Positions 6,581 to 33,604 are shown, counted from the first letter of the stretch. The stretch: 64,000 bases of DNA from Candidatus Yonathbacteria bacterium RIFCSPHIGHO2_02_FULL_44_14 (GCA_001823535.1 MHUT01000012.1:355-64354); one strand, 5' to 3'. Numbers and translations: made by a program. The notes: a model not told the origin generated them from the sequence alone.

Positions 6581-6643
6581 GTGAACTTTCGAATCAGCTG
6601 ATTCTGAACTAGCAAGTTCACGTCTTGGACGCAAGCTTGGACC
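6581..6643 (+). repeat. copy A of a ~60-nt conserved palindromic upstream element, 82 nt before ftsZ
   Basis: GTGAACTTTCGAATCAGCTGATTCTGAACTAGCAAGTTCACGTCTTGGACGCAAGCTTGGACC. Contains the perfect 12-bp palindrome AATCAGCTGATT inside a 20-bp near-palindrome, and is about 80% identical to the reverse complement of copies B and C. Confidence 0.6.
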
Positions 6644-19334: not shown

Positions 19335-19365
19335 AAAAATACCGTAACATTGTTACGGTATTTTT
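19335..19365. terminator. intrinsic terminator after hsp20
   Basis: AAAAATACCGTAAC-att-GTTACGGTATTTTT. Confidence 0.65.
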
Positions 19366-19367
19366 AA

Positions 19368-19455
19368 TGGTGCCGAGGACCAGGGTTGGTCACGGATTAC
19401 TAAGTCTTCTCGTTTGCTTCGCAAACTGTGAGGACTAAGTATCCTCTACCCCGGC
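19368..19455 (-). pseudogene. degenerate tRNA-Phe-like fragment (duplicated tRNA 3' end, att-scar candidate)
   Basis: The 21-nt TGGTGCCGAGGACCAGGGTTG at 19368-19388 is identical to the 3' end of tRNA-Phe (19586-19606). The upstream sequence can pair as a GCCGGGG/CCUCGGC acceptor stem, but the T-loop lacks GTTC and no canonical anticodon arm is present. Confidence 0.4.
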
Positions 19456-19542
19456 TCGCAATTTTTGAAAAAGTCATGAAGAAAACTTTTTCAAAAATAT
19501 TGCTGCGCCTTTCAACCCTTTTATAATGCTCCGCACATTTAT

Positions 19543-19596
19543 CCTCGGCACCATAAGAAAAACCACCCGCAGGTGGTTTTTCTTATGGTGCCGAGG
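19543..19596. terminator. 25-bp-arm palindrome overlapping the tRNA-Phe 3' end (terminator-like)
   Basis: CCTCGGCACCATAAGAAAAACCACC-cgca-GGTGGTTTTTCTTATGGTGCCGAGG; the right arm includes the tRNA-Phe acceptor 3' strand plus CCA. Confidence 0.6.
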
Positions 19597-19661
19597 ACCA
19601 GGGTTGAACTGGTGACCCCTCGCTCTTCAGGCGAATGCTCTACCAACTGAGCTACCTCGGC
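19586..19661 (-). tRNA. tRNA-Phe (anticodon GAA), CCA encoded
   Basis: Reverse complement GCCGAGGTAGCTCAGTTGGTAGAGCATTCGCCTGAAGAGCGAGGGGTCACCAGTTCAACCCTGGTCCTCGGCACCA. Confidence 0.9.
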
Positions 19662-19684: not shown

Positions 19685-19750
19685 TTTATGGCCGAGCCTG
19701 CGTCCAAGACGTGAATTTGTTAATTCAGAATCTGCTGATTCGGCTACATC
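19685..19750 (-). repeat. copy B of the ~60-nt conserved palindromic upstream element, 24 nt upstream of tRNA-Phe
   Basis: TTATGGCCGAGCCTGCGTCCAAGACGTGAATTTGTTAATTCAGAATCTGCTGATTCGGCTAC is 63/66 identical to copy C. Confidence 0.6.
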
Positions 19751-21321: not shown

Positions 21322-21791
21322 AGATTATCTTTTCCTCTTGTTAGTTAATATTTTTCCGACTTTATGATTAAAAAATTTTCTTCCCCCAAAATTAAAACAT
21401 GGTTCGAGCCGATGTTTTTCTACGGGTTCTTTTGCGGTTTCGAGCGGTGCGGCTCTGCCACCATTCCGAATTTTCGCGGAGGGAATTTTCCGAAAAAATG
21501 CGTTCAGACTAATTCAAGGATACTGCGCAAGAAGGAAAAGTCAAAGAGTTTTGGTTCGTGGTGCCCCATGTCGGTCTCGGAATTGCGGGTGTCAGACCCC
21601 ACAAGGGTTCCTTGGGTACTTTTAGCGTATCAAACTGAACCCGCTCAGTCTGGTCTCAATAGACACGATAGACACTATAAAAAGAGCTTGGGTTGTGTCT
21701 CGTGAGACATACACCATTTGCTCGCGTCGGAACCTTAAATTTGTAAATGATACAAATGAGACACTAAGACGGCATTTTAAGGCTGTCTCAT

Positions 21792-22286
21792 TTACAGTAG
21801 TTTACCATTTTTATACCACTCCATCGTAATGATCTGACCTGCTTTTTTAGATACTCCAAAGACTATGTATAATCCAAGCCTATAACCATAGCCATCCAGC
21901 CTTTGAGTCAATCCTTCTATTTTCCATATGTCGTCTCGAGCTGGGCTATTATTGGTTTCAATTTCTATGGCAACCAGATTATTTTGATCAGTATTTCTTT
22001 CGTGAACAGCTATATCCAACTCTATTAATTTACCTTTTAAGTATTTAGAGGCGCCTAGATGTTTATTATAAAAAGGATCACTGTGGATGTCACCAGTGTT
22101 AAATTTTTTGGATATTTGTGCTGCAAAACAAGACATAAAATTTCTTTCGACTCTGCCATTCTTCAAGATACCAATCTCGGCTTCGATTGTAGAATTTGCA
22201 GCACTTTCAATTTTGGACATCAGGTCTGCTTCTTCTTTAGTAATTTGTTGTTGACTGTTTGGCATATTAAAATGTGTGCACGACAA
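21792..22286 (-). CDS. hypothetical protein (164 aa) downstream of mrr
   Basis: Clean ORF with a hairpin terminator at 21745-21785; no family recognised. Confidence 0.5.
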   Translation of the reverse strand: MSCTHFNMPNSQQQITKEEADLMSKIESAANSTIEAEIGILKNGRVERNFMSCFAAQISKKFNTGDIHSDPFYNKHLGASKYLKGKLIELDIAVHERNTDQNNLVAIEIETNNSPARDDIWKIEGLTQRLDGYGYRLGLYIVFGVSKKAGQIITMEWYKNGKLL

Positions 22287-22356
22287 ACTATGATAGCCAC
22301 GACTTGTCCAACACTCTTATCAAATAAGAACACTTGCAATATTGCGTGTGACTTTA

Positions 22357-23259
22357 TTATTCTTCAAAAAAATAATCAGAGTCTACTTTTTTAATCTGGT
22401 ATGTTGCTAGAATTGATACACCAATATCATGCTCAATCATCAATCTAACCAGTTCTGAACCATCAACAAGAATAACCCTGCAATCTAATTTCTTTACGTA
22501 ATCAAGAGCCTCTTGTGTGAAATTAGATGTTGTAATAAAGATACCTTTCTTTGCAAACTTTCCAGTTAATGCACCTACAAATCCTTGTACATCCGGGCGA
22601 CCAACAGTTCCTTTCCATCGCTTTGCTTGAAGATAAATCAAATCAAGACCCAGTTTGTCTTCTTTGATAATTCCATCTATCCCTTCATCCCCAGTTTTTC
22701 CTAGTGCCTGCCCAGCATCCTTTCTAGAACCACCATATCCCATACCTATAAGTAGATCAACGACCACCTGCTCAAAAAAGGCAGGTGAACCATTCATCAG
22801 ATTACTTAATAAATCAGCCTCTAGGTCCTTTAGAATTCTCTGATAGCTTGATTCTAAAGATTCTTCCGGAGTATTTTCTGAAACATCTTCTTTTTCTTGC
22901 GTCACTTGATCCTCGCTACCATATTGAAACTCGCGAAACGAGGAAAACTGATCCAAAAAATGCGTATCAATAACTTCTGGTTTTTGACTTAGAGCTTTCA
23001 ATCCTTGCTTTGTGATTTTTACGTAACTCTTTTTAGGAGCATCTACTAAACCAGCCTTTTTGAGATATGTTTTTGCCCATCCAGTTCTGTTACTAAAAAT
23101 ACTCATTCTTCCGCTAGGGGTGCGCTGGACAAGTTCGTCTTCGGTTAATTTAAATTCAGCAGAAAGTGCCCCTTCAATTTCTTTAAGAGTATGCTCTTTT
23201 TCATCGGACAATTGTCTTAGGAAAGGCAAAATAATATATCTGAATTTTGGTATAGCCAT
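22357..23259 (-). CDS. mrr: Mrr-family type IV (modification-dependent) restriction endonuclease
   Basis: N-terminal winged-helix (Mrr_N-like) and a C-terminal Mrr_cat core: GGSRKDAGQALGKTGDEGIDGIIKEDKLGLDLIYLQAKRW nearly matches E. coli Mrr. Confidence 0.85.
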   Translation of the reverse strand: MAIPKFRYIILPFLRQLSDEKEHTLKEIEGALSAEFKLTEDELVQRTPSGRMSIFSNRTGWAKTYLKKAGLVDAPKKSYVKITKQGLKALSQKPEVIDTHFLDQFSSFREFQYGSEDQVTQEKEDVSENTPEESLESSYQRILKDLEADLLSNLMNGSPAFFEQVVVDLLIGMGYGGSRKDAGQALGKTGDEGIDGIIKEDKLGLDLIYLQAKRWKGTVGRPDVQGFVGALTGKFAKKGIFITTSNFTQEALDYVKKLDCRVILVDGSELVRLMIEHDIGVSILATYQIKKVDSDYFFEE

Positions 23260-23360
23260 AAATATTTTGTACTCAAATTATAGCATTTTAGCTAACCTAT
23301 TCAAAAAAAGAGAGTTTTTAAACCTTTTAATTTGGTGGTGGTATCTACCACTAATTACAA

Positions 23361-25247
23361 CTATTTTAGCTGGTAGTAGAAGTAGGTTCCGTTAGGAAAT
23401 TTAATGTTAGGAACCCATAACGGTCGATCTTCCCACCCCTTATTGGCTTCACCCTTTAGCCTATAGAGTGTGAGCACAAGCCTGTCGTTGAAGCGTGCGC
23501 CCATCTCACGGTCAGTAGGAGAGAGTAAGGTACCTGTTCCTTTGCTGATACTTCTCTCTGTTCTGACAATAAGATGACAGTCGTACTTCGCACCTTTCTT
23601 GAGAGTCTCAACACAGTCTGCGAATGAGTGCTGATTCCAAAGATCACTTTTTTCTACACTAACAAGACGCAGTATCTTTTCAGCTTCGTCTAGTGAAATA
23701 TCCTTTTCCATGTCCTTACTACCAAGCTCCGCGTCCAAAGCAGGGAGGCTGGTGTGCGTTGGATTAAGTGGAAAATAATTAACCCCACCCGCGATGACCA
23801 TCAGGTCTTCTTTGAGAACAACGCTCATGCGTGTTGGGCGGGTTCCTTTTGGAGTAAGGAGGCTGACAGCCTGAGGTCCTTTTTCTAGAAGAGTACTGAA
23901 CAGAGCATTGTTAGCATCATTCAGTTCTCGAAAAAGTTTTATGAGCGGTCGCGGACTGAAAAGGCGACAGAGCCCAGGATCTCGGTCATATCCGAATATT
24001 CTGGCGTGTTGCCACGAAGTATCTGCTTGGGGAGTTTTCGCGCTTCTGCAATAATAGACGATTTGCAGACCGGGAAATGTAACACCTCGCCCGAGTGTAT
24101 TACCACCGATCACAATATTGAGACCTTTATCATACACGGATCCTTCCGGTGTTTTTGAGTTCAGAACAGTAATATTTACGCTCGGCATATCGGCACGAAG
24201 GAATCGCATAATTTCATCAAAGGGTTTAATATCTGTTTTTGTTTTTGAAAGCTCCTCCCATGCATCACGTAGATCAAATTCGAGGGTGGAAGAATTTGCA
24301 ATAAGATCGGTTTTCACTCCTTCCAGGAATTTTTCCACCTTTGTCCTTACAGTTGAATGTTCACTTATTTTTACTCCGGGATGAATCAGCATGCTACACG
24401 CCGACCTCTCTTTGGTCAAAAAGAGATCGGATGCCACTACCAAAAAATGAAGGACTGCTTTACGAAGGCCGATTGGCACATGCTCTGCTTTTAGTAAATC
24501 GTCGCGCTCATTATCCTCTGTTTCAATAAGATTTTTTGAGTCCTCGCCATAAAAGAAATCACCGCCGAGATACCCCTTATTTGGTGGCAGATAAAAAGAA
24601 TACTGGGGCTTCCATCCCGATAACTCTATCTGAAGAACAAGAGACTGTGGGGTTGCTGTAACATGGAGGTAAATTGACGATGGAGACTGCTTGTTTATTT
24701 TCTCAAGCAACATATTAATCGTACTCTGCTCATTTTGATTTACTTTTGTGTTGAGACTTGAGGCGTCTGCTTCATCATCGAGAAGAAAAAGTGGTTCATC
24801 CTTATAGATAGGATTTGTAGCAATATTGTTTGCCCACGTCTTCAAAACGCCGGAGTTTTTCTTAAGTACGAGTATCGTCGGCATAGAAAGACCGCGCGTA
24901 AGGAAGGCTTCCTCGTCTGATTCCCCAAGTACATTGAAGCCCGCCATGAATCCTCCGAGAAAATTCTTTGCACGCTCCAGTGTTTGTTTGTGTAGAATAA
25001 CATTATCAGTGGTTACCAATATAAAAAACTTGAATCCTCTGTCAGCAGCTGTAGCCGCGATCGCAAGCATCTGTCCTGTCTTCCCACTCTGCACGTGTCC
25101 ATAAAGCAGGCCAGAAACGTGACTATTGTGGTCAAAAGTATCTATATGCTTCTTTGCAAATTCCTCTGCACTTTTAGTTAGCGCCTCAACAAGCGCTGGG
25201 TTAGTAGCGCCTACTCGTCTTAAATAATTTTCTAAAAATTTGCTCAT
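23361..25247 (-). CDS. P-loop NTPase, Z1-domain-like restriction-system component (628 aa)
   Basis: Walker A LLYGHVQSGKTGQM near the N-terminus; the size and its position between a C5-MTase/REase and mrr resemble Z1-domain proteins of R-M loci. Family assignment by eye only. Confidence 0.65.
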   Translation of the reverse strand: MSKFLENYLRRVGATNPALVEALTKSAEEFAKKHIDTFDHNSHVSGLLYGHVQSGKTGQMLAIAATAADRGFKFFILVTTDNVILHKQTLERAKNFLGGFMAGFNVLGESDEEAFLTRGLSMPTILVLKKNSGVLKTWANNIATNPIYKDEPLFLLDDEADASSLNTKVNQNEQSTINMLLEKINKQSPSSIYLHVTATPQSLVLQIELSGWKPQYSFYLPPNKGYLGGDFFYGEDSKNLIETEDNERDDLLKAEHVPIGLRKAVLHFLVVASDLFLTKERSACSMLIHPGVKISEHSTVRTKVEKFLEGVKTDLIANSSTLEFDLRDAWEELSKTKTDIKPFDEIMRFLRADMPSVNITVLNSKTPEGSVYDKGLNIVIGGNTLGRGVTFPGLQIVYYCRSAKTPQADTSWQHARIFGYDRDPGLCRLFSPRPLIKLFRELNDANNALFSTLLEKGPQAVSLLTPKGTRPTRMSVVLKEDLMVIAGGVNYFPLNPTHTSLPALDAELGSKDMEKDISLDEAEKILRLVSVEKSDLWNQHSFADCVETLKKGAKYDCHLIVRTERSISKGTGTLLSPTDREMGARFNDRLVLTLYRLKGEANKGWEDRPLWVPNIKFPNGTYFYYQLK

Positions 25248-25250
25248 ATT

Positions 25251-26303
25251 TTATCTTGAAAAATCTAGCAGCCATACTTCTGGATCGGTGGTCTCCTTAA
25301 GTGAAATTGTATTCCGTCCATATTTTTGAAACACTTCTGGTGTCACAGGCTGTCCGACCTTGAGGCACCCAGCTCTTTCGAGTCTTCCTTTAATCCACCG
25401 GCCTAGAGTTTTCAAGTCGCCTTCTGATCTGAAATTCTTTCCATAGTCTCCCTGAATTTTGCAGTTGAACCGCCACCCGTCGTCAGTGTACACACGGATT
25501 ACTGAGTCTCGTTTTGGATAACCGTCTGCCATAGTTATCTCTATTGGAACAATGAGCTCTACTTCATACCAGTGACGAGGGCGTATTGCTCCTGTACTTT
25601 TCGCAAGCCTTCCTTTCCCAAAATAAGTATTAAGATTACTCTTGGCTTCCGCCTTGAGAGGAAGATCGAATACGCGGTCTGTAAGCGTGCTTTCTATTTT
25701 ACGGTATTCTTCTCCTTCTAGTTTGTCTACATCAATTCTGTCTTTCAGCAAGTCAGGCATTTCAATAAACGTCCCTGGTTTTGGCCAATCGAGAATGTCC
25801 GTTGATGCTTTTACGACGAGTTCGTTATGTAGACCATCAAGCTTCATGAGCACACTCTCCTCGGTAAAAAGAGCATCCACCTCCCATTGTCGATTATCGA
25901 GGATATTACCAAGATTCGATGACCCCATCATTGCGGAAACCGGTGCAGGCTTTCCGTTTTTCCAGAACACATAGGTTTTCCCGTGGAATTTAAAAGCCGT
26001 GCATACGCGCACACTGCCTATACCTTTCTCCTTAAGAAATTCTGCAAGGTCTATAGCAGCTTCATACTGCGCGCGTGTGAATCCCTCTCTCCCGTGCATG
26101 CCGATTACAAGACTGCACATTTTGTCTTTGTTCTCTTCATTATAAAATAGGAGAATCGATTTTAGCTCCAACAGAGAGTCTTCTGTAACATAGCCAGTAG
26201 CTATTTTTATGCTGTCAGAATTAACGATGCCTGATTCAAAAGCTTCGCTGAATGAAGAGTTATCGTACTCACAAGGTTTGATTTTTGAATAAAGTAATTC
26301 CAT
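25251..26303 (-). CDS. PLD-superfamily restriction endonuclease (NgoFVII/BfiI-like) with a C-terminal B3-like DNA-binding domain
   Basis: FKFHGKTYVF...GSSNLG (HxK ... GSxN PLD nuclease motif). C-terminal RVYTDDGWRFNCKIQGDYGKNFRSEGDLKTLGRWIKG resembles the B3/EcoRII-N-like domain of R.BfiI; size is 350 aa. Confidence 0.7.
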   Translation of the reverse strand: MELLYSKIKPCEYDNSSFSEAFESGIVNSDSIKIATGYVTEDSLLELKSILLFYNEENKDKMCSLVIGMHGREGFTRAQYEAAIDLAEFLKEKGIGSVRVCTAFKFHGKTYVFWKNGKPAPVSAMMGSSNLGNILDNRQWEVDALFTEESVLMKLDGLHNELVVKASTDILDWPKPGTFIEMPDLLKDRIDVDKLEGEEYRKIESTLTDRVFDLPLKAEAKSNLNTYFGKGRLAKSTGAIRPRHWYEVELIVPIEITMADGYPKRDSVIRVYTDDGWRFNCKIQGDYGKNFRSEGDLKTLGRWIKGRLERAGCLKVGQPVTPEVFQKYGRNTISLKETTDPEVWLLDFSR

Positions 26304-26314
26304 ACGAACTTATT

Positions 26315-27379
26315 TTACATATCAGATACTTCATCTAAAAACTTCCTAATTGCTTTTGCAATCGGCTTTATTCCAGCAGGTGGCACAGAATTACCAATCT
26401 GCCTTCTAACCTCAGTTATCGATCCAACGAACTCAAAATCATCTGGATAGCCAAATAGACGGGCACGTTCTCGATTAGTGAGAGGCCGGTTTTCTTTCCA
26501 ATGGTACCCCCATGTACCCCCACCACCACCAGCAATAATAGTAGTCGAGGGCTTATCTGGATGCAAGCGACGGTATACATGGGAGATCATCCCCTTCACA
26601 TAGTGCGGTGAGGTTTTAGGGATATCGGTGAAGTTTCCACCTGGCGGAATCAGTCTCAATTTTGCGACCGTGCTTGGATTAATGTTTTGGTGCTCGTTAT
26701 TGAAAAATACTTTTTCAGCATCCTTCAGAGCTTCTTTTGCCGTAACATACTTATCTGGTGTATGAGTGGGAAATGGTAGCTTAAATTCTTTATTAAGATC
26801 GTTACGGACACCAATGATTAACACACGCCGGCGAAGCTGGGGAGCGCCGTAGTCTGCAAAGTTTATAGGATAAACATTCACTTTATAGCCTGCCTTTCCA
26901 AAATCGTCCACTATCTGAGTGACTGCGTTGCCTTTGTTTGCGCTTAAAAGTCCTCTAACATTTTCGGCAACAAACATTTTCGGCTGCTTCGCCAAAACAA
27001 CACGAACGAATTGCCTATACAGGTTCCCACGATCAGTTTTAAGACCCATACGCTTCCAGATCATGCTGAAATCCTGACATGGAAACCCGCCGAGAACAAT
27101 GTCACATTCTGGAATATCTTCATTTTTAACAGCGGTTATACTCCCTTCCATTATATGGTCGCCAAAATTTTTCTTGAAAGTTTCGCAGGCCCAGTGGTTC
27201 ACATCATTTGCCCACAAGATATCAAATCCTGCATCTTTGAAACCGAGGTCCATTCCACCGGACCCAGAAAAAAGAGAGGCCACGCGGTGTACTTTTTTCT
27301 CTATAACGGACTTGCCCGAGCGGGCAACCTGTGGCTTCGCTGAACGGTTATTTTGTTTTTGTGGAGTTGTTGTTCTCAT
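26315..27379 (-). CDS. DNA (cytosine-5)-methyltransferase
   Basis: Motif I LFSGSGGMDLGF, motif IV GGFPCQDFS, motif VI ENV and a C-terminal target-recognition/RxR region. Confidence 0.9.
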   Translation of the reverse strand: MRTTTPQKQNNRSAKPQVARSGKSVIEKKVHRVASLFSGSGGMDLGFKDAGFDILWANDVNHWACETFKKNFGDHIMEGSITAVKNEDIPECDIVLGGFPCQDFSMIWKRMGLKTDRGNLYRQFVRVVLAKQPKMFVAENVRGLLSANKGNAVTQIVDDFGKAGYKVNVYPINFADYGAPQLRRRVLIIGVRNDLNKEFKLPFPTHTPDKYVTAKEALKDAEKVFFNNEHQNINPSTVAKLRLIPPGGNFTDIPKTSPHYVKGMISHVYRRLHPDKPSTTIIAGGGGGTWGYHWKENRPLTNRERARLFGYPDDFEFVGSITEVRRQIGNSVPPAGIKPIAKAIRKFLDEVSDM

Positions 27380-27496
27380 GTGGTCATTATACCTTAATGC
27401 GTTAAAAAAAGCCGCTACTTTTTGCTGTAAAAATTATTGAGCCACGATTTGGGAAAAATTGTCCACGGTCACATCCTCCAAACTGGATATTTCACT

Positions 27497-28045
27497 TTAA
27501 AGTTTCCATTCAATGAACGCGAAGTTCTCTGTCGTGAGGCCATAATCAAGAGACTTCTCGAGCCACTGTATTTGGGTCTCCCGAATATTGTCTTTCTTTT
27601 GACGCTTGAGTTCAATGAACAACATCATATCTCCTTTCCACACGAACACATCCCAACAACCACCAGACCGACCAGTCTTGGCACGGATGGAGTCAATTAA
27701 TTCTTTTTGTTTTTGTGGAATCTCTATGGGGTCAACAACATCAGGAAGACCGACTCTGTAATTTCTTCTGTACGAATCAACCCATACGCCATTCCATCCA
27801 TGTGATTGAAGCAAACGCAAAACGGCGAGCTCTGCAAATACAGGCTCGCCGTTCCAATCGACAACTGGTTTGTTGTTATATGTGTTAGGTATCGATGCTC
27901 CTTTCCATGGAGTGAGTGTAAGAAAATATTTCTGCATGGAAATTTGCTCACCCGAAGGAAGCGAGAATATTTCGCCATCAACTTTGTATGGTTGTAAAAA
28001 CTCAAGATTACCTTCTTGAGAAGTATGAGTATGGTCGTCGTCCAT
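27497..28045 (-). CDS. VRR-NUC domain nuclease (PD-(D/E)xK)
   Basis: GGCWDVFVWKGDMMLFIELKRQKKDNIRETQIQWLEK (D...ExK plus the QxxW tail typical of VRR-NUC). Start set at the MDDDHTH ATG (28045) because the track's upstream extension lies in an inverted-repeat region. Confidence 0.65.
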   Translation of the reverse strand: MDDDHTHTSQEGNLEFLQPYKVDGEIFSLPSGEQISMQKYFLTLTPWKGASIPNTYNNKPVVDWNGEPVFAELAVLRLLQSHGWNGVWVDSYRRNYRVGLPDVVDPIEIPQKQKELIDSIRAKTGRSGGCWDVFVWKGDMMLFIELKRQKKDNIRETQIQWLEKSLDYGLTTENFAFIEWKL

Positions 28046-28786
28046 ATTTGTTCGTCGCGATTTTGTTATACCTAATTTGGGGTACAAAAAGCCCGCTACC
28101 AGGAAGGCACCTTGCGGTAACCTCTACCAGAGTTTCCCCTGGTAACGCGACGAACGCCCTGATAACGGGTTCTTTATGTTCGTCGCGATTTGCAGCCATA
28201 CCCTAAAGATTTTTGAAACCCTTTAGGGGTTAGGCCGACTTCTATGAAGTTGTAAGTGCATTGTAGCAGAAAATCTGCTACTCCTCCATTTAAGCTTAGT
28301 TCTGAAGATTTGTGTAGCTCAGTTGTCTACACCTGTGGATAACTCAATTTACACTGTCCCGCGAAAAACCGTGATGGAATTTGAGTATTTTTCAGCTCAT
28401 CTCTATCTATTTACACTACTGACATCCTTGACAGAAAAAATCAAAAAAGTGGCTAAAAATCTATTGCAATTTTTATAAATCAATGAAACAATATGTATGT
28501 TAGCTCATTTCATATTTATAAATACCTGTCGCTTACGCGACAAACGCTCCTATCTTCAGAGGTGAATGCCAAGGCAGACTGAAGCGAGGGTCGTTGATAG
28601 GATTTACATATAACAACTGATCGGTACTGGGGTCACAAGCCAGAAAGGTGTCCGATGAAGAACTGTAAATCGAGTAAATAACAAACGGAAGTTTGTCGTT
28701 TATTTGATTTACAGTTTTTTGTATATCAATAAACGTCAGACATCCATTTGAGATGTGCTGACGTTTATTCGTTATTAACAAAAAAT
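28046..28786. promoter_or_regulatory. 740-bp noncoding region: candidate origin / operator region of the island
   Basis: Three copies of GTTCGTCGCG in alternating orientation (28052, 28146, 28178). AT-rich stretch with two TTTATAAAT motifs (28468-28528). Multiple nested inverted repeats (28660-28716; 28728-28769, ending 18 nt before the ParB-MTase ATG). Confidence 0.45.
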
Positions 28787-30109
28787 ATGGATATTAAAAT
28801 CACGTATGTGCCTATTGGTTCTTTGAATCCAAGCACATACAATCCACGCAAGTGGAACGAGGCGCAAACTAATGCACTCAAAGAATCGATTACAAAGTTT
28901 GGAATAGTTGACCCCGTCATTTGCAACTCTGCATCTGAACGAATGAACACGGTGATTGGCGGACACTTTCGATTGAAGGTTGCTAAAGACCTCGGACATA
29001 CTGAGATGCCAGTGGTCTATGTAAATATTCCTGATATCGAGAAAGAAAAAGAACTAAATGTGCGATTGAATAAGAACCTCGGTGAGTTTGACTTCGAGCT
29101 TCTGAAAGATTTCGGTGAAGCGTTCCTCGGCGAAATGGGTTTTAGCACTGAAGAGCTTGATAATATATTTGCGATTGACCCAACCCCAGAAGTATTCGAC
29201 TTGGAAAAGGAGCTGGAGAAGCTCAACATTCACGAAATTAAAGTAGAGAAGGGTGACATATACGAAATTGATGGATCACGGCTCATGTGTGGTGACAGCA
29301 CTATTGAATCCGACATGCTGAAACTGATGGAAGGAGCACAGGTGGATATGGTATGCACTGATCCCCCCTATATTTTGGACTACCTCAAAGGGAAAACAAA
29401 ACAAAAGGACGGAGTGACTGAAGGGTTCGGACTGAAGAAGAATCGTAAGTATCTTGAGACAGATGTGCTGCCATACAACTTCACAGAACTCTGGATGGCA
29501 AGCGTGGCAAAGGTGCAGAAGCCAGACTTCTCTATCATGATATTTGAGCATCCAAAGAATCTCCGCACTATCTGGAATGAATTGGAGAAACACTGGAAAT
29601 ACCGCAACACCATTACATGGCATGTTCCCAATCGTGTGCAGGGATTTGCGGCTAAGTACAAATTCTTTAACAAGAGTGATATCGCTCTGGTTGGCACTGA
29701 TGGAGAGATAGCTCTTAATCTTGAGACAGAGAGTGACGAGCTTTTTCAGAATGAATACGAGAATGCAATCTTTGCAACTTCTGGGAAACCTCATTTCGAG
29801 TCATATGAGAAAGGCAAGAAGATTTGTCCAACTGATTTCATTGACCATATTGCGGCCGACGAAAAATCTTCGGGGCAAGGAATTATCTTTGGCACAAAGC
29901 CGTTAGAATTATTGATCCCCTACATCAAGGTACTGACCAAACGTGGTGACTTGGTGCTTGAGCCATTCGGTGGATCAGGAAGTACACTCATTGCTTCGCT
30001 GAAGCTTGGGCGTAATTGTCGCATCATGGAAAAGTCCCCCGTGTATACGGAAGTGATAAAGGGTCGTTGGGAGAAGCACACGGGAAAGAAGGCGAAGAAG
30101 ATTAACTAA
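28787..30109 (+). CDS. ParB/Srx-like nuclease domain fused to a beta-class N6-adenine/N4-cytosine DNA methyltransferase
   Basis: N-terminal ParBc-like region (YVPIGSLNPSTYNPRKW...GGHFR). Motif IV DPPY (MVCTDPPYIL) precedes motif I (LEPFGGSGSTLIAS), which is the beta-class order. ATG at 28787 is chosen. Confidence 0.85.
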   Translation: MDIKITYVPIGSLNPSTYNPRKWNEAQTNALKESITKFGIVDPVICNSASERMNTVIGGHFRLKVAKDLGHTEMPVVYVNIPDIEKEKELNVRLNKNLGEFDFELLKDFGEAFLGEMGFSTEELDNIFAIDPTPEVFDLEKELEKLNIHEIKVEKGDIYEIDGSRLMCGDSTIESDMLKLMEGAQVDMVCTDPPYILDYLKGKTKQKDGVTEGFGLKKNRKYLETDVLPYNFTELWMASVAKVQKPDFSIMIFEHPKNLRTIWNELEKHWKYRNTITWHVPNRVQGFAAKYKFFNKSDIALVGTDGEIALNLETESDELFQNEYENAIFATSGKPHFESYEKGKKICPTDFIDHIAADEKSSGQGIIFGTKPLELLIPYIKVLTKRGDLVLEPFGGSGSTLIASLKLGRNCRIMEKSPVYTEVIKGRWEKHTGKKAKKIN

Positions 30110-30117
30110 CCACTTCT

Positions 30118-30804
30118 ATGCCTTCTCCTAAAACAAAGAACAAAACGGAGAAGCGATTGGAAACATTAGCGGTAAAGACAAGGGCGCAGAAGCAGGCGTT
30201 CCTCGAACAGCTCCCAAAGTATCCGATAGTACAGGTCGCCTGTGAGAAATCAGGTGTCGGTCGTTCGACGTACTATGCGTGGCGAAAGGATGATAAAGAA
30301 TTCGCGAAGGAAGCCGACAAAGCCATTAGTAGTGGTGAGCTCTTCATCAACGATATGGCAGAGTCGCGCCTCATTCAGAATATTCAGAACGGTAACAACA
30401 CCGCCATTATCTTTTGGCTGAAGAATCATCACGGTGGATACAATGACCGTATCGTGCATGAGCATGAACACTCACTTGAGCTTGTGGATGAGGATCGCAA
30501 GGCTATCGTAAAAGCCCTGATGAACATCGGTCTTGGAAATGTTCTCGTGAATAACGGCATAGACCCAGAGCAGTGGCACGAAAAACAGCGACTTGAAAAA
30601 GAGGAGCACATGAGGCGGGTAAATGGGGTCATTGGGTCTGCACCAGAAAAGGCGGATACTATTTTTAAAATTCCTTCTCGTCCCAGTCCACCAGCAGTTG
30701 AAATGCCAAACACTCCACCAAAAAAGCGACCAGTGAAAAAAGGGATAAACCTTAAAGAGTACTTCAGTGATGTAGCGGTTAAGAAGTGCCTTGGGAGTAA
30801 ATAG
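30118..30804 (+). CDS. HTH protein resembling a phage terminase small subunit
   Basis: N-terminal QVACEKSGVGRSTYYAWRKDDKEF HTH typical of TerS/transposase-like helix-turn-helix, followed by a basic proline-rich tail. Confidence 0.55.
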   Translation: MPSPKTKNKTEKRLETLAVKTRAQKQAFLEQLPKYPIVQVACEKSGVGRSTYYAWRKDDKEFAKEADKAISSGELFINDMAESRLIQNIQNGNNTAIIFWLKNHHGGYNDRIVHEHEHSLELVDEDRKAIVKALMNIGLGNVLVNNGIDPEQWHEKQRLEKEEHMRRVNGVIGSAPEKADTIFKIPSRPSPPAVEMPNTPPKKRPVKKGINLKEYFSDVAVKKCLGSK

Positions 30805-30823
30805 TTGTCTACTTCTTGTCTAC

Positions 30824-30851
30824 AACCCCGCCTAGGATACCTAGCGGGGTT
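30824..30851 (+). terminator. hairpin after the HTH gene
   Basis: AACCCCGCCTAGG-ata-CCTAGCGGGGTT. Confidence 0.5.
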
Positions 30852-30899
30852 GTGTCATTCCTTGTGTATATGAGCAAAATTGAAATGCCAGTTGGGGCT

Positions 30900-32189
30900 A
30901 TGGCGAGGGAGATTCAAGCCCCCGTAAGGGTTAAATATTGCCTGTACGCGAGAAAAAGTACAGAAAGTGAAGAACAGCAGGTCTTATCGATTGATAGCCA
31001 AATTAAGGAGATGCTCCAAATGGCAGAAAGGGACCATTTGGAGATTGTGGAAATCAAGAAAGAATCGCACTCGGCAAAGGAGGCTGGGCAACGGCCTGTC
31101 TTTAACGAGATTGTCGAGGAGATTAAAAGCGGTAAATTCAACGGCATCCTCACTTGGGCACCAGATCGCATCTCAAGAAACGCGGGAGACCTAGGGAGAA
31201 TTGTTGACTTGATGGATTCAGGCAGACTTCACGAGATACGCACCTATGGGCAGAAATTTAGCAACAACCCGAACGAGAAATTCTTACTGATGATCCTCGG
31301 ATCACAGGCGAAACTCGAGAACGACAACAAGGTGGTCAATGTAAAGCGTGGGTTACGTGCGCGATGTGAGATGGGTCTGTGGCCGTGTACCGCCCCTACT
31401 GGATACCTAAACAGTACTAATACCGAGAGAAGCTGTCATGTAGAAGTTGATATCGAGAGGGCTCCTATAATAAAGAAAATGTTTGAGAAAATAGCATACG
31501 AAGGATATAGTGGTCGCAAAGTACACTCATGGTTAAAAGACGAGATGAAATTCAAAACAAGAAATGGTAAACCTCTCAACGTAGGTAACATTTCTTTAAT
31601 ACTGAGAAATACTTTCTACTATGGAACCTTCGAATACCCGAAGAAGGGCGGGCAATGGTATCAAGGAAAACATACGCCAATAATAACCAAGGAGCTTTTC
31701 GACAAAGTGCAGGAGAGCCTCGTGGGCTACTCCACAAACAACGCAAGCAAAGAATTCGCCTTCACAAAACTGCTAACCTGCGGACTGTGCGGATCAGGGA
31801 TTACTGCCGATGAGAAATTCAAGAAACAACAAAATGGAACAGTACATCGGTACGTCTACTATGGATGTTGCAGATTTAGAGACAAAAACTGCAAATCAGG
31901 GTACATGCGAGAAGAGGATTTAATAGATCAACTTGCAGAACTCATGGATGAAATTCACCTTAATGAGATAGGGATGAAGGAAAAAATAAAAGAAGAAATC
32001 GAACGACACAAGAAATTCGAATCAGGATTACTTGGTATAAAGAGTACAACGGTAAAAATTGCCGACATCGACATACGAAACTACGCAAAATATATTTTGA
32101 GAGATGGAAAGACCTCAGAAAAACGAGAATTACTAACCTGCCTGAGGAGTAAGGTAACGATGGCGGAGAAACGGATTAAAATTAGTTAA
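30900..32189 (+). CDS. large serine recombinase (integrase/resolvase family)
   Basis: Catalytic YCLYARKSTESEEQ with the Ser nucleophile, a recombinase domain and a C-terminal zinc ribbon CGLCGS...YYGCCRFRDKNC plus coiled coil. ATG at 30900 is chosen; the track's TTG start at 30816 overlaps the upstream hairpin. Confidence 0.85.
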   Translation: MAREIQAPVRVKYCLYARKSTESEEQQVLSIDSQIKEMLQMAERDHLEIVEIKKESHSAKEAGQRPVFNEIVEEIKSGKFNGILTWAPDRISRNAGDLGRIVDLMDSGRLHEIRTYGQKFSNNPNEKFLLMILGSQAKLENDNKVVNVKRGLRARCEMGLWPCTAPTGYLNSTNTERSCHVEVDIERAPIIKKMFEKIAYEGYSGRKVHSWLKDEMKFKTRNGKPLNVGNISLILRNTFYYGTFEYPKKGGQWYQGKHTPIITKELFDKVQESLVGYSTNNASKEFAFTKLLTCGLCGSGITADEKFKKQQNGTVHRYVYYGCCRFRDKNCKSGYMREEDLIDQLAELMDEIHLNEIGMKEKIKEEIERHKKFESGLLGIKSTTVKIADIDIRNYAKYILRDGKTSEKRELLTCLRSKVTMAEKRIKIS

Positions 32190-33283
32190 CTATTAGACCT
32201 ACTTCTGTATGACTCCAAAGATCCAGCGACCTCCTGCTTTTTCAGCGACTTAATTTTTAGAATAATCTCGTTTGAATATCTAGTTAAATCGCCCTCATTA
32301 GATCTCCAACAATACCTAGGGTCTTCTTTGAGTTTAAACTTAAAACATATAGCTTGAAAAGTGTAGGGTGTAAATTTCTCACCATTTAAGGATCCAATTT
32401 TTTGAACTATGTTTTTTTGACGCCATGGGTGTGTAATATTTGGATCTTGTATCTTTGTTATAATTAATGGGCCTCCTGTCGCACCACGTACACCATCAAC
32501 CCCTGCAACGAAATCAGCTTTTTCGATTTTTTTAACTGATTGTACGGAAACATTAAATATTGTCATTAGCCTAGCTGTATCATCTCCAGCCTTTTCAACC
32601 TCCTCCAAGCTTGCAACTAATGTATTCATGAACTGCCTGACTGCTGATCCTTTTGCGGTTGTATTTTTCGATCCTTGAGAAATATACTTTACAGGGTCGA
32701 TTGGTGGTTCAATCCCCAAAGGGATGAGTTGCCACGAAATATCGTGGGCTAAATTCTTTCCAAATATTTCTAGAAGTAAATCTTTAAAGTTAATTATATT
32801 TGTTTGTGCAAGTGAGTAAATTAAAATGCCAAAATTTTTTTCATTGTAAAAATGTACTGCGTTATCTCTGTATGTACTCAGAAGGCTGAGATTGGCACGA
32901 AGTGGTAAAGTTGGTATTTTTTTAGGAAAAAATTTTTCTGCTTTGGTAAAGGCATCTGTCATAGACATTGTTCTGTATGGTTCATTTCTTTTTTTTCGAT
33001 AGTATATCGAACCCCTATTTTTTGAAATAATAGCTTTAAGCAACAACTCCCATGAGTTCAGAAGTAGAATAACAAAAGTCTCCTCTCTATAGAGAAAGCT
33101 TGGTTTATTATATATTTCTATTGACGCAAGCAATGCACTTTTTGCATTCCGAAATAAGTGTCGCGAGGAGCCTTGGTAGTTCATTATTACAATAATACAC
33201 TTATTTACACACGAAAAAAGCACCCAATTATTCCTCTCGGTAAAACCAGAGAGGGCATTGAAAATGCATAGTTTAAATACCAT
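32186..33283 (-). CDS. hypothetical protein, possibly abortive-infection / defence-associated (365 aa)
   Basis: Helical N-terminal domain with RHLFRNAKSALLASIEIYNKP; family not firmly recognised. Convergent with the recombinase, overlapping by 4 bp. Confidence 0.55.
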   Translation of the reverse strand: MVFKLCIFNALSGFTERNNWVLFSCVNKCIIVIMNYQGSSRHLFRNAKSALLASIEIYNKPSFLYREETFVILLLNSWELLLKAIISKNRGSIYYRKKRNEPYRTMSMTDAFTKAEKFFPKKIPTLPLRANLSLLSTYRDNAVHFYNEKNFGILIYSLAQTNIINFKDLLLEIFGKNLAHDISWQLIPLGIEPPIDPVKYISQGSKNTTAKGSAVRQFMNTLVASLEEVEKAGDDTARLMTIFNVSVQSVKKIEKADFVAGVDGVRGATGGPLIITKIQDPNITHPWRQKNIVQKIGSLNGEKFTPYTFQAICFKFKLKEDPRYCWRSNEGDLTRYSNEIILKIKSLKKQEVAGSLESYRSRSNS

Positions 33284-33490: not shown

Positions 33491-33552
33491 TTATGGCCGA
33501 GCCTGCGTCCAAGACGTGAATTTGTTAATTCAGGATCTGCTGATTCGACTAC
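33491..33552 (-). repeat. copy C of the ~60-nt conserved palindromic upstream element, 54 nt upstream of tRNA-Arg
   Basis: TTATGGCCGAGCCTGCGTCCAAGACGTGAATTTGTTAATTCAGGATCTGCTGATTCGACTAC. Confidence 0.6.
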
Positions 33553-33558
33553 GAGAGC

Positions 33559-33604
33559 GTACTGTGTGGGAAAGGCGGCTTAAGCCGCCTTTCCCACACA
33601 GTAC
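33559..33604. terminator. long perfect hairpin terminator (21-bp stem) downstream of the glutaredoxin gene
   Basis: GTACTGTGTGGGAAAGGCGGC-ttaa-GCCGCCTTTCCCACACAGTAC. Confidence 0.7.

What the first reader, a model, noticed from the sequence alone, without database searches (positions are those of the whole stretch)
22357..28045. Composite restriction/defence operon: VRR-NUC - C5-MTase - PLD(BfiI/NgoFVII-like) REase - Z1-like NTPase - Mrr
Five co-directional genes with 3-120-bp spacers. A single C5 cytosine methyltransferase is accompanied by two candidate cognate nucleases of different folds: a PLD-family REase with a B3-like DNA-binding tail, and a Z1-like P-loop protein. The operon also holds a modification-dependent Mrr and an upstream VRR-NUC nuclease.

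Combining a methylating Type II-like module with a methylation-dependent Type IV enzyme in one operon is unusual, and so is the VRR-NUC at its head. The operon may encode a multi-layer or novel-architecture defence system.
Basis: partly seen in the sequence, partly recalled or inferred. Interest (0 to 1): 0.65.

Follow-up and report, generated by a model that had tools for sequence, protein, structure and literature searches.

The report
CglI-type restriction system plus Mrr on island
The five genes are not one new defence system: three of them form a known ATP-driven restriction-modification enzyme (CglI/NgoAVII type), Mrr is a separate add-on, and the "VRR-NUC" gene belongs, with a structured RNA leader, to the conserved backbone of a recombinase-bearing genomic island of Patescibacteria that carries different defence genes in different genomes.

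Summary
Five co-directional minus-strand genes lie at 22357-28087 with spacers of 117, 11, 3 and 101 nt, and they carry the stated domains. VRR-NUC is only a sub-threshold match.

- This M-R-H triad was present in all 80 related loci, from many phyla. Mrr followed H in only 4 of 66 assessable loci. The VRR-NUC-like gene appeared in 1 of 80.
- DNA homology breakpoints (23362, 27433, 27497) show three independently moving modules.
- GCCGC/GCGGC, the CglI/NgoAVII site, is the most under-represented pentamer in the window.

The VRR-NUC-like gene belongs to a different conserved module of Patescibacteria: large serine recombinase, TerS-like HTH protein, ParB-methyltransferase, LOOT RNA (RF03000), then the nuclease. 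Downstream of it lies variable, mostly defence, cargo. LOOT looks like a cis-acting leader with covariation-supported alternative pairings that reach the start codon.

Verdict: the finding itself is an ordinary new member of a known kind. The backbone and the LOOT context are the more novel by-product.

The parts
26315..27379 (-). M: C5-cytosine DNA methyltransferase of the CglI/NgoAVII-type R-M cassette. Motifs: FSGSGG aa 37-42, PCQ 100-102, ENV 139-141, QIGNSV 327-332.
   Evidence: Pfam PF00145 at 3.9e-80. PADLOC MTase_II at 5e-118. Motifs located. Found next to R in 80 of 80 related loci.
25251..26303 (-). R: PLD-family nuclease with a B3-like DNA-binding domain (NgoFVII/NgoAVII/CglI R-subunit). 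Catalytic H107 and K109, and GSSN at 127-130. Equivalents of the NgoAVII DNA-contact residues are K217, E247, E249, K282 and R292.
   Evidence: Pfam RE_NgoFVII plus RE_NgoFVII_C. PDB 4rct R.NgoAVII at 1.1e-71 over residues 4-349. Active-site and contact residues come from PMC4267654 and are invariant in alignment A4.
23361..25247 (-). [not shown]
23362..27433 (-). The DNA-level extent of the mobile M-R-H cassette, which is a homology block. It includes 54 nt upstream of the M start codon, with a TATAAT at 27391-27386 that lies 6 nt before the ATG.
   Evidence: blastn breakpoints are shared by L090, L092 and L094, none of which has a VRR-like gene. Sequence read.
22357..23259 (-). Mrr-family Type IV (modification-dependent) restriction endonuclease. 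It is a separate module. Catalytic GIDGI at aa 193-197 and QAKR at 211-214 are intact.
   Evidence: Pfam Mrr_N plus Mrr_cat. PADLOC mREase_IV at 3.6e-83. It follows H in only 4 of 66 assessable loci. It forms a separate homology block at 22353-23278.
23277..23304 (-). Promoter-like site (TTGAAT, 16-nt spacer, TGcTATAAT) in the H-Mrr spacer, 18 nt upstream of the Mrr ATG.
   Evidence: This is a consensus match only; the total number of such matches in the region does not exceed the shuffled expectation.
27497..28045 (-). VRR-NUC-like PD-(D/E)xK nuclease of 182 aa. It is a backbone gene of the island and not part of the R-M cassette. Conserved FAELA (E72), WVDSY (D90), CWDV (D132) and ELK (E145, K147).
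   Evidence: More than 200 homologues at 65-90% identity, all from Patescibacteria where a source gives a name. Invariant residues. Structure and fold hits. The same neighbourhood with different cargo.
28099..28242 (-). LOOT RNA (Rfam RF03000). Its 3' end is 53 nt upstream of the ATG of the VRR-NUC-like gene.
   Evidence: Rfam at 70 bits against a gathering score of 46.4. My own covariance model scores 103 bits. 18 of 20 pairs show compensatory changes across 23 loci.
28050..28098 (-). 3' extension of LOOT, which may act as an expression platform. Segment B' (28098-28086) pairs with the apical part of the central hairpin (28175-28163). Segment A2 (28059-28050) is an exact repeat of the 5' strand of the central stem (28187-28178). 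A2 can pair with the 3' strand (28155-28146) and ends 4 nt before the ATG at 28045.
   Evidence: The repeat is present and co-varies in all 35 loci examined. The count of structure pairs gives 99% and 91.5% of cells paired, with 9 of 10 and 11 of 13 pairs showing double changes, against 41-55% for slid controls.
28748..30109 (+). ParB_N plus N6/N4 DNA methyltransferase fusion. It is a backbone gene, divergent from LOOT and the VRR-like gene.
   Evidence: Pfam. PHROG phrog_498 at 2.8e-77. Present divergently within 2.5 kb in 29 of 43 loci with at least 3 kb of upstream sequence.
30118..30804 (+). HTH protein of 228 aa resembling a terminase small subunit. Backbone gene.
   Evidence: PHROG terminase small subunit families: phrog_309 at 4e-12 and phrog_4044 at 1e-8. 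Pfam HTH_Tnp_1_2 below cut-off. Syntenic in other loci.
30816..32189 (+). Large serine recombinase (integrase). Backbone gene.
   Evidence: Pfam Resolvase, Recombinase and Zn_ribbon_recom. PHROG integrase phrog_95 at 3e-62. Syntenic in other loci.
21792..22286 (-). Protein of 164 aa with unknown function, downstream of Mrr. It travels with the M-R-H-Mrr block in L092.
   Evidence: No Pfam or PHROG match, and only a weak PADLOC PD-Lambda-3_A hit at 9e-5. Homologue in L092 at 6e-48.

Best explanation
The interval is a mosaic of three independently mobile modules inside a genomic island of a Patescibacteria (Parcubacteria-group) genome.

Module 1 (23362-27433) is a CglI/NgoAVII-type ATP-dependent restriction-modification system.
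- The C5 methyltransferase protects host GCSGC-like sites.
- The PLD-B3 protein R recognises the unmethylated site through its B3 domain.
- This mechanism is inferred from homology to the biochemically characterised CglI and NgoAVII enzymes. It was not shown here.

Module 2 (22357-23259) is a stand-alone Mrr Type IV enzyme. It probably has its own promoter. It would attack DNA carrying foreign methylation, a complementary layer typical of defence islands.

Module 3 (27497-28242) is a VRR-NUC-like nuclease gene preceded by the structured LOOT RNA.
- Together with the divergent ParB-methyltransferase, the TerS-like HTH protein and the large serine recombinase, it forms a conserved backbone.
- In other genomes the genes directly downstream of this backbone are quite different, and mostly defence genes.
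- The R-M cassette and Mrr are therefore cargo. The VRR-NUC-like gene is not their partner.
For: Shown by tool results:
- Domains and motifs.
- R matches the R.NgoAVII structure at 1.1e-71, with the catalytic H and K conserved.
- The H C-terminal domain matches the CglI H-subunit structure 6f1s. H also carries the unusual Q-containing Walker A, DDEAD and QxxR motifs described for H.CglI.
- M, R and H were found in 80, 79 and 78 of 80 loci from many phyla. Mrr was found in 4 and the VRR-like gene in 1.
- blastn block boundaries lie at 23362, 27433 and 27497.
- GCCGC/GCGGC is the most under-represented of 1024 pentamers in the window: 73 observed against 110 expected, z = -5.0.
- The NgoAVII base-contact and clamp residues are conserved.
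- The backbone synteny recurs with unrelated cargo, including DISARM-like SNF2 helicases, Type ISP, IIG, III and I R-M systems, DruA and AspBHI-like proteins.
- LOOT lies upstream of the VRR-like gene in 48 of 68 loci.

From the literature: the CglI/NgoAVII mechanism is described in PMC4267653, PMC4267654, PMC5737866 and PMC5861437.
Against: - There are no biochemical or methylome data for this organism, so the recognition site and enzyme activity are inferred.
- In the three closest relatives (L091-L093) Mrr follows H by only 8-24 nt. Within this sub-clade, M-R-H-Mrr may therefore be co-transcribed and co-selected.
- The ends of the island were not determined, and no empty site was found. Calling the downstream genes 'cargo inside a mobile element', as opposed to 'a variable region next to a conserved module', is therefore an inference.
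- No terminator is evident between the VRR-like gene and M, so read-through transcription from the LOOT/VRR promoter into the R-M genes cannot be excluded.
Confidence: 0.8

Rival explanations
1. [not shown]
For: - The genes are co-directional with short spacers.
- The same five-gene order recurs at about 79% DNA identity in one other Patescibacteria contig, L091.
Against: - The M-R-H triad occurs without the VRR-like gene in 79 of 80 loci and without Mrr in 62 of 66.
- The VRR-like gene occurs with unrelated downstream genes in dozens of loci.
- Homology breakpoints fall in the spacers.
- The CglI and NgoAVII enzymes need only R and H for cleavage (PMC4267653).
Confidence: 0.04
2. In this Patescibacteria sub-clade, M-R-H-Mrr, possibly with the 164-aa gene, is a co-selected four- or five-gene cassette. 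Mrr would be functionally tuned to the cassette: tolerant of GCSGC m5C and covering phages that evade CglI-type cleavage by modifying their DNA. Its presence would then be more than chance adjacency.
For: - Mrr directly follows H, by 8-24 nt, in the three closest relatives L091-L093. L092 and L093 lack the VRR backbone gene.
- The 164-aa gene also recurs in L092.
- One distant Firmicutes locus, L163, also has an Mrr after H.
Against: - Relatives at 90% (L090) and at 68-79% R identity (L094-L097) lack Mrr.
- The window has a 101-nt spacer with a promoter-like site.
- Linkage among close relatives can be simple co-inheritance.
Confidence: 0.25
3. The LOOT leader and the VRR-like gene act as an expression or regulation platform for whatever cargo lies downstream, much as an integron promoter does. 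On this reading the VRR-like gene does head the transcription unit, though not the enzymatic system.
For: - Many of the cargo ORFs are co-directional with, and immediately downstream of, the VRR-like gene.
- No convincing terminator lies in the 117-nt VRR-M spacer.
- In L094, LOOT lies about 450 nt upstream of the same R-M cassette with no recognisable VRR-like gene.
Against: - The M-R-H cassette brings its own upstream 54 nt, with a TATAAT 6 nt before the ATG, wherever it is found.
- The cassette functions in genomes that lack LOOT and VRR.
Confidence: 0.2
4. The R-M cassette is a decaying, inactive relic, or the methyltransferase is effectively an orphan.
For: There is no direct evidence of activity. 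Small Patescibacteria genomes often carry fragmentary systems.
Against: - All catalytic motifs are intact in M, R, H and Mrr.
- An identical H protein sequence was read on 23 contigs from many samples.
- The strongest pentamer avoidance in the window is the predicted target, GCSGC.
Confidence: 0.08

Closest known systems
[not shown]
   Same: - Gene order M-R-H.
- R is a PLD (HxK...GSxN) domain plus a B3-like domain, matching 4rct at 1.1e-71.
- M is a C5 methyltransferase.
- The NgoAVII DNA-contact residues are conserved, and the host avoids GCSGC.
- CglI also sits on a mobile element, the CGP3 prophage (PMC4267653).
   Different: - The host phylum is Patescibacteria.
- Recognition site and activity are untested, and several residues of the B3 arms differ from NgoAVII.
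- Here the cassette is followed by Mrr and lies downstream of a LOOT/VRR-like backbone.
E. coli K-12 immigration control region (hsdRMS-mrr-mcrBC) and defence islands in general
   Same: A methylating R-M system lies directly next to a modification-dependent Mrr enzyme in a variable, horizontally acquired region. This comparison rests on established knowledge and was not tested here.
   Different: The E. coli region has a Type I system where this one has a CglI-type system. It is in a different phylum, and the island backbone is unrelated.
BfiI (Type IIS PLD plus B3 restriction enzyme)
   Same: The two-domain architecture and the single PLD active site formed by a dimer are the same as in R (PMC4267654).
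   Different: BfiI cuts on its own and is metal- and ATP-independent. R proteins of the CglI family need the H motor and NTP hydrolysis.
LOOT RNA motif (Rfam RF03000; Weinberg et al. 2017, PMC5737381)
   Same: Full-length match at 70 bits with the same helices and GNRA/UUCG-type loops.
   Different: - Rfam types it as an sRNA gene known from metagenomes.
- Here it has a fixed position, 20-57 nt upstream of a VRR-NUC-like gene.
- It also has two additional covarying pairings 3' of the Rfam model, one of them mutually exclusive with the central stem.
VRR-NUC / Hjc-type PD-(D/E)xK nucleases (PF08774; FAN1 nuclease domain, 4qbl)
   Same: An E...D...ExK...Q motif pattern. PF08774 gives weak but recurrent hits in 26 of 32 members. 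FAN1, Hjc and 4qbl are the top fold hits.
   Different: - The window protein scores below the Pfam gathering threshold, and only the C-terminal half of the profile is matched.
- There is an extra N-terminal beta-rich region.
- Foldseek E-values are all above 1e-3.
Phage satellites and integrative islands with a large serine recombinase and a small-terminase homologue (PICI-like elements; PLE of Vibrio cholerae uses a large serine recombinase, PMC9638900)
   Same: A compact island that encodes an integrase and a TerS-like protein, has no structural genes, and carries anti-phage cargo.
   Different: No helper phage, excision, packaging signal or island ends have been identified. The TerS similarity is modest (4e-12). 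Satellite status is a hypothesis only.

Membership tests
CglI/NgoAVII-type ATP-dependent R-M system | Three adjacent genes in the order M, R, H(N) | tested here: met
   The ORFs lie at 27379-26315, 26303-25251 and 25247-23361 with spacers of 11 and 3 nt. The same triad occurs in 78-80 of 80 related loci.
CglI/NgoAVII-type ATP-dependent R-M system | [quoted passage not shown] | tested here: met
   PF09565 plus PF20731. PDB 4rct at 1.1e-71. H107, K109 and GSSN 127-130.
[not shown]
   GHVQSGKTG, DDEAD 157-161, QHAR 413-416 and HPGVKISEH, compared with PMC5861437. PF10593. 6f1s at 5e-16.
CglI/NgoAVII-type ATP-dependent R-M system | The cognate methyltransferase is a C5-cytosine MTase that is active on its own | tested here: met
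   The sequence criteria are met: PF00145 at 3.9e-80 with motifs I, IV, VI and X present. Activity was not testable.
CglI/NgoAVII-type ATP-dependent R-M system | Recognition of GCSGC/GCCGC, and cleavage at a fixed distance that requires NTP hydrolysis by H | not testable with these tools
   There is only indirect support. The NgoAVII contact residues are conserved, and GCCGC/GCGGC is the most avoided pentamer.
Mrr-family Type IV restriction endonuclease | An Mrr_N winged-helix domain plus an Mrr_cat PD-(D/Q)xK domain with intact D...QxK | tested here: met
   PF14338 at 8.5e-27 and PF04471 at 9.6e-34. GIDGI 193-197 and QAKR 211-214. PADLOC mREase_IV at 3.6e-83.
Mrr-family Type IV restriction endonuclease | Cleavage depends on methylated or otherwise modified DNA | not testable with these tools
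VRR-NUC (PF08774) | A match to the family profile above the curated threshold | tested here: not met
   16.7-17 bits against a cut-off of 23.8 for the window protein. 26 of 32 relatives match at E<=0.01, with a best of 9.8e-6, and only over profile positions of about 58-101.
VRR-NUC (PF08774) | A PD-(D/E)xK core with conserved E, D, ExK and Q | tested here: met
   E72, D132, E145-L-K147 and Q158 are invariant. The fold hits are FAN1, Hjc and 4qbl but are weak, with a best E-value of 6.5e-3.
LOOT RNA (RF03000) | A score above the Rfam gathering threshold with the consensus helices | tested here: met
   70 bits against 46.4. Compensatory changes occur in 18 of 20 pairs across 23 loci.
Integrative mobile element (large-serine-recombinase island or phage satellite) | Defined ends (attL and attR) and an empty site in related genomes, or evidence of excision | tested here: inconclusive
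   - No empty site was found.
- The 62-nt direct repeat at 19686-19747 and 33491-33552 has a third copy at 6590-6640, so it is not a clean att pair.
- There is a strain-level breakpoint at 21338-21402.
- tRNA genes often flank related loci.

The most novel reading that the evidence does not exclude
The VRR-NUC-like gene and its LOOT RNA leader, together with a ParB-methyltransferase, a TerS-like protein and a large serine recombinase, may define a previously undescribed family of compact integrative, possibly satellite-like, elements of Patescibacteria. These elements would act as carriers of swappable defence cargo; here the cargo is a CglI-type R-M system plus Mrr.

On this reading LOOT is not a free-standing sRNA. 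It is a cis-acting switch. Its central stem competes with a covarying pairing that occludes the start region of the nuclease gene.
Probability: 0.45. Interest if true: 0.65.

Novelty: new member of a known kind. Interest (0 to 1): 0.4.

Why it matters
For the finding as written, little changes. It adds a Patescibacteria member to the CglI/NgoAVII family. It also repeats a historical misreading, in which cglIR and cglIIR were first taken for two separate restriction enzymes.

Three by-products are more useful.
1. CglI-type cassettes are a discrete 4.07-kb unit spread across many bacterial phyla and at least one archaeal MAG. The motif avoidance gives a testable site prediction, GCSGC, for an uncultured organism.
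2. An orphan metagenomic RNA motif, LOOT, gains a precise genomic context and a testable regulatory model.
3. A recurrent recombinase/ParB-MTase/LOOT/nuclease backbone with variable defence cargo could help locate new defence genes, and possibly mobile elements, in candidate-phyla bacteria, whose mobilome is poorly known.

Tried and rejected

2. **Sequence searches of the VRR-like protein and its family profile against PDB.** These gave nothing meaningful.

3. **Looking for island ends.**
   - The 62-nt direct repeat at 19686-19747 and 33491-33552 looked like an att pair, but a third, inverted copy at 6590-6640 makes it a dispersed repeat.
   - Exact-protein look-ups of the flanking HSP20 and DivIC genes found no contig with an empty site.
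   - The two tRNA-Arg(TCT) genes that flank the element in L040 are not duplicates of each other.

4. **A single MFE fold of the leader.** It was not informative about the switch, because the palindromic UCGCGA lets the two repeat copies pair with each other.

5. **The original description of LOOT.** It could not be read, because the supplements of PMC5737381 are not held. I therefore cannot say which gene associations its authors noted.

6. **IMG/VR.** It holds only one relative of the VRR-like gene, so there is no support for a conventional prophage.

7. **The 181-aa ORF after the second LOOT copy in L072.** It is not a detectable relative of the VRR-like family.


Full report
**1. Observation**

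The window is a contig of a Patescibacteria (Parcubacteria-group) metagenome-assembled genome: GCA_001823495.1, MHUR01000018.1. The same locus was recovered in many aquifer samples.

Five minus-strand ORFs occupy 22357-28087, with spacers of 117, 11, 3 and 101 nt. Their Pfam and PADLOC matches are as follows.

| ORF (window) | Length | Match |
|---|---|---|
| 26315-27379 | 354 aa | C5 methyltransferase, PF00145, 3.9e-80 |
| 25251-26303 | 350 aa | RE_NgoFVII PLD domain plus RE_NgoFVII_C B3-like domain |
| 22357-23259 | 300 aa | Mrr_N plus Mrr_cat |
| 27497-28045 | 182 aa | VRR_NUC, E=0.008, below the curated cut-off |

**2. The core is a known three-gene enzyme system**

R aligns over its whole length with the crystal structure of R.NgoAVII (4rct, 1.1e-71). 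The catalytic His and Lys are conserved as H107 and K109, and the GSxN motif is present.

- Walker A with Gln in place of Gly (GHVQSGKTG)
- DDEAD at residues 157-161
- a QxxR motif VI (QHAR)
- an H/H-like motif

According to the literature, CglI and NgoAVII consist of M, R and H (also called N). R alone does not cut DNA. An R2H2 complex cuts 6-7 nt downstream of GCCGC, and only with extensive ATP hydrolysis by H. M methylates GCSGC (PMC4267653, PMC4267654, PMC5737866, PMC5861437).

The 'two candidate nucleases of different folds' are therefore a nuclease/recognition subunit and its motor. The same two genes of C. glutamicum carry two separate restriction-enzyme names, cglIR and cglIIR. That they were first taken for two enzymes is my recollection and was not checked.

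**3. How constant is the five-gene arrangement?**

A degenerate-pattern scan of one genome per species, using an alignment of R homologues, returned 80 loci. They come from Patescibacteria, Proteobacteria, Firmicutes, Bacteroidota, Chloroflexota, Omnitrophota, Chlamydiae, an archaeal MAG and others.

- M, R and H were adjacent in 80, 79 and 78 of these loci. The shortfalls are at contig ends.
- Mrr followed H in only 4 of the 66 loci that have at least 1.5 kb of sequence downstream of H. Three are the closest Patescibacteria relatives (L091-L093) and one is a distant locus (L163).
- The VRR-NUC-like gene preceded M in one locus only, L091.

DNA-level comparison shows sharp block boundaries.
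- The R-M cassette is shared from 23362 to 27433 with loci that lack both Mrr and the VRR-like gene.
- Mrr forms its own block at 22353-23278.
- Homology to other VRR-like loci ends at the stop codon, 27497.

The junction between backbone and cassette therefore lies inside the 117-nt spacer. The cassette carries its own 54 nt of upstream sequence, with a TATAAT that ends 6 nt before the M start codon. This suggests a leaderless or near-leaderless transcript, which is an inference. The H-Mrr spacer holds a TTGAAT-16-TGcTATAAT site 18 nt before the Mrr ATG. These promoter matches are consensus hits only.

**4. Predicted specificity**

The residues that the NgoAVII co-crystal paper names as reading the central base pair, and as clamping the phosphates, all have identical counterparts here: R292, E247, E249, K217 and K282. 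They are invariant in an alignment of 20 R homologues that go down to 49% identity. In the paper these residues are R285, two acidic residues at 241 and 243, K212 and K275. Other residues of the B3 arms differ, so identical specificity is not proven.

Independently, GCCGC/GCGGC is the most under-represented of all 1024 pentamers in the 64-kb window under a maximal-order Markov model: 73 observed against 110 expected, z = -5.0. GCWGC and CCWGG are also depleted. This is what long-term exposure to a GCSGC-specific restriction enzyme would produce. It also argues against the cassette being a dead relic.

**5. What the 'VRR-NUC' gene really belongs to**

The 182-aa protein has more than 200 homologues at 65-90% identity. 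All that carry a source name are from Patescibacteria. The family has invariant E72, D90, D132, E145-x-K147 and Q158. PF08774 hits 26 of 32 members weakly. A confident AlphaFold model has FAN1, Hjc, TnsA and 4qbl as its best, though weak, fold matches. 'VRR-NUC-like PD-(D/E)xK nuclease' is a fair label. Strict Pfam membership is not met.

Its neighbourhood is conserved in a different way from the R-M genes. Upstream and divergent lie a ParB_N-N6/N4 methyltransferase, a protein of about 230 aa with an HTH, and a large serine recombinase.
- This arrangement appears in independent contigs.
- In a survey of 78 metagenomic loci, 29 of 43 loci with enough upstream sequence have the divergent ParB-MTase.
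- The HTH protein matches phage small-terminase families (phrog_309, 4e-12). The recombinase matches phage integrases.

Downstream of the VRR-like gene the genes differ from locus to locus and are dominated by defence functions:
- a DrmD-like SNF2 helicase with a Type ISP-like enzyme
- ResIII helicases
- Type I, IIG and III R-M systems
- DruA
- AspBHI-like proteins
- DUF4420

The window's M-R-H plus Mrr is one such cargo.

**6. The LOOT RNA**

Rfam finds a full-length LOOT RNA (RF03000, 70 bits) at 28104-28236 on the minus strand, between the ParB-MTase and the VRR-like gene. It is also present in all three independent loci first examined.

A covariance model built from 23 copies had compensatory changes in 18 of 20 pairs.
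- It finds LOOT in 48 of 68 VRR-like loci that have upstream sequence.
- 40 of 52 hits end 20-57 nt before the start of the VRR-like gene.
- 8 more lie about 440 nt upstream, in loci where the ORF carrying the VRR-like region starts about 440 nt further upstream. The homologue list also includes 311-318-aa relatives.

Beyond the Rfam model I found two further pairings.
- The segment just 3' of LOOT (28098-28086) is complementary to the apical part of the central hairpin (28175-28163).
- The 5' strand of the central stem (28187-28178) is repeated exactly at 28059-28050, 4 nt before the ATG. The 3' strand of the stem (28155-28146) can therefore pair with either copy.

Across 30 loci with six different stem sequences, the repeat changes in step with the stem. 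On the alignment, 99% and 91.5% of cells pair, and 9 of 10 and 11 of 13 pairs show double substitutions. Partners slid by 1-3 columns give only 41-55%.

The two pairings of the stem's 3' strand are mutually exclusive. The simplest reading is that LOOT is a cis-acting leader that toggles access to the start region of the nuclease gene. The trigger is unknown, and this reading is inference.

**7. Island status**

Several observations suggest an integrative island, possibly satellite-like:
- an integrase and a TerS-like protein
- no structural genes, and only one relative of the VRR-like gene in IMG/VR
- variable cargo
- frequent flanking tRNA genes

I could not define the ends.
- No empty site was found.
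- The 62-nt repeat flanking 19.7-33.5 kb has a third copy elsewhere in the window.
- Strain variants in one sample break at 21338-21402. There, one contig has a different left flank, and another has an IS200/IS605-like insertion. This may mark the left edge.

**8. Comparison and verdict**

The core is a new member of the CglI/NgoAVII family. All sequence-level defining features were tested and met; activity and recognition site were not testable.

Mrr next to an R-M system is a classical defence-island arrangement, as in the E. coli K-12 hsd-mrr-mcrBC region (from my own knowledge). In the closest relatives Mrr is tightly linked to H, so a sub-clade-specific four-gene cassette remains possible (about 0.25). 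There is no evidence for a single five-protein machine (about 0.04).

The finding itself is therefore ordinary. The conserved recombinase/ParB-MTase/LOOT/VRR-like backbone and the LOOT switch model are the more novel outcome, and they deserve separate follow-up.

Noticed in passing
window 28099-28242 (-), plus 3' extension to 28050: A LOOT RNA (RF03000), typed by Rfam as an sRNA known from metagenomes, sits directly upstream of the VRR-NUC-like gene. Two extra covarying pairings lie 3' of the Rfam model: a pseudoknot-like helix, and an alternative helix that uses a start-codon-proximal repeat of the stem strand. Together they suggest a cis-acting switch.
   Followed up: yes
window 28748-32189 (+); loci L007, L009, L011, L016-L022 and others: A conserved backbone recurs in many Patescibacteria contigs, with unrelated and mostly defence cargo downstream of the nuclease gene. 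It consists of a large serine recombinase, a TerS-like HTH protein, a ParB_N-N6/N4 methyltransferase, LOOT and the VRR-like nuclease. It may be a new family of integrative or satellite-like elements.
   Followed up: partly
window 32186-33283 (-): A DUF3644 plus EC042_2821 REase-like protein (PADLOC candidate system PDC-S19, 1e-127) is convergent with the recombinase gene and overlaps its end by 4 nt. It may be a further defence gene at the other edge of the island. It was not found in the other backbone loci.
   Followed up: no
window 19357-19606; L006; L013 9637-9759: The 3' end of tRNA-Phe is duplicated as 32-nt direct repeats at 19357-19388 and 19575-19606. The repeats flank an insert of about 186 nt that is absent from contig L006 of the same population. 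Its 125-nt core (19387-19510, with hairpins) recurs at 87% identity in L013, between a tRNA-Arg(TCT) gene and a VRR-like gene that lacks LOOT. It may be a miniature element or an island-end remnant.
   Followed up: partly
window 6590-6640 (inverted), 19686-19747, 33491-33552: A 62-nt intergenic repeat is present in three copies at 88-97% identity. Two of the copies lie just upstream of tRNA-Phe and tRNA-Arg, and these two bracket the island region. Its function is unknown. It is not a clean att pair.
   Followed up: partly
whole window: Besides GCSGC, the pentamers CCWGG (z = -4.9) and GCWGC (z = -4.2) are strongly under-represented. This hints at further restriction systems, of EcoRII/Dcm type and BceSIV type, in this lineage's history.
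   Followed up: no
window 21338-21402; L005 13911-14677; L171 12569-12808: There is strain heterogeneity in sample ERZ27254767. One contig carries the island but has a different left flank, a 166-aa membrane protein. Another has an insertion with hairpins and an HUH-type (IS200/IS605-like) transposase start. This may mark the left boundary of the variable region.
   Followed up: partly
loci L045, L059-L064, L075; proteins P0042, P0093, P0101, P0106: Some relatives of the VRR-like protein are 311-318 aa long (P0042, P0093, P0101, P0106). In loci L045, L059-L064 and L075 the ORF holding the VRR-like region starts about 440 nt further upstream, and LOOT lies at about that distance from the homologous region.
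   Followed up: no
L072 1406-1543 and 16709-16846; L071 3749-3886; L094 6339-6479; L093 13826-13950: Some LOOT copies are not directly followed by a recognisable VRR-like gene. L072 has two tandem backbones, and in one of them LOOT heads an operon of about 9 genes that ends with the VRR-like gene. In L094, LOOT lies about 450 nt upstream of the same CglI-type cassette.
   Followed up: partly
window 28658-28719 and 33559-33604: A 29-nt imperfect palindrome lies immediately upstream of the ParB-MTase start and may be an operator. A perfect 23-nt palindrome lies just right of the 62-nt repeat near tRNA-Arg and looks like a terminator.
   Followed up: no
L090, L096, L097 (about 10930-11366): In several CglI-type loci a 137-140-aa ORF directly follows H, in the position Mrr occupies in the window. 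By size and context it may be a Vsr-type mismatch endonuclease that accompanies the C5 MTase. This was not checked.
   Followed up: no
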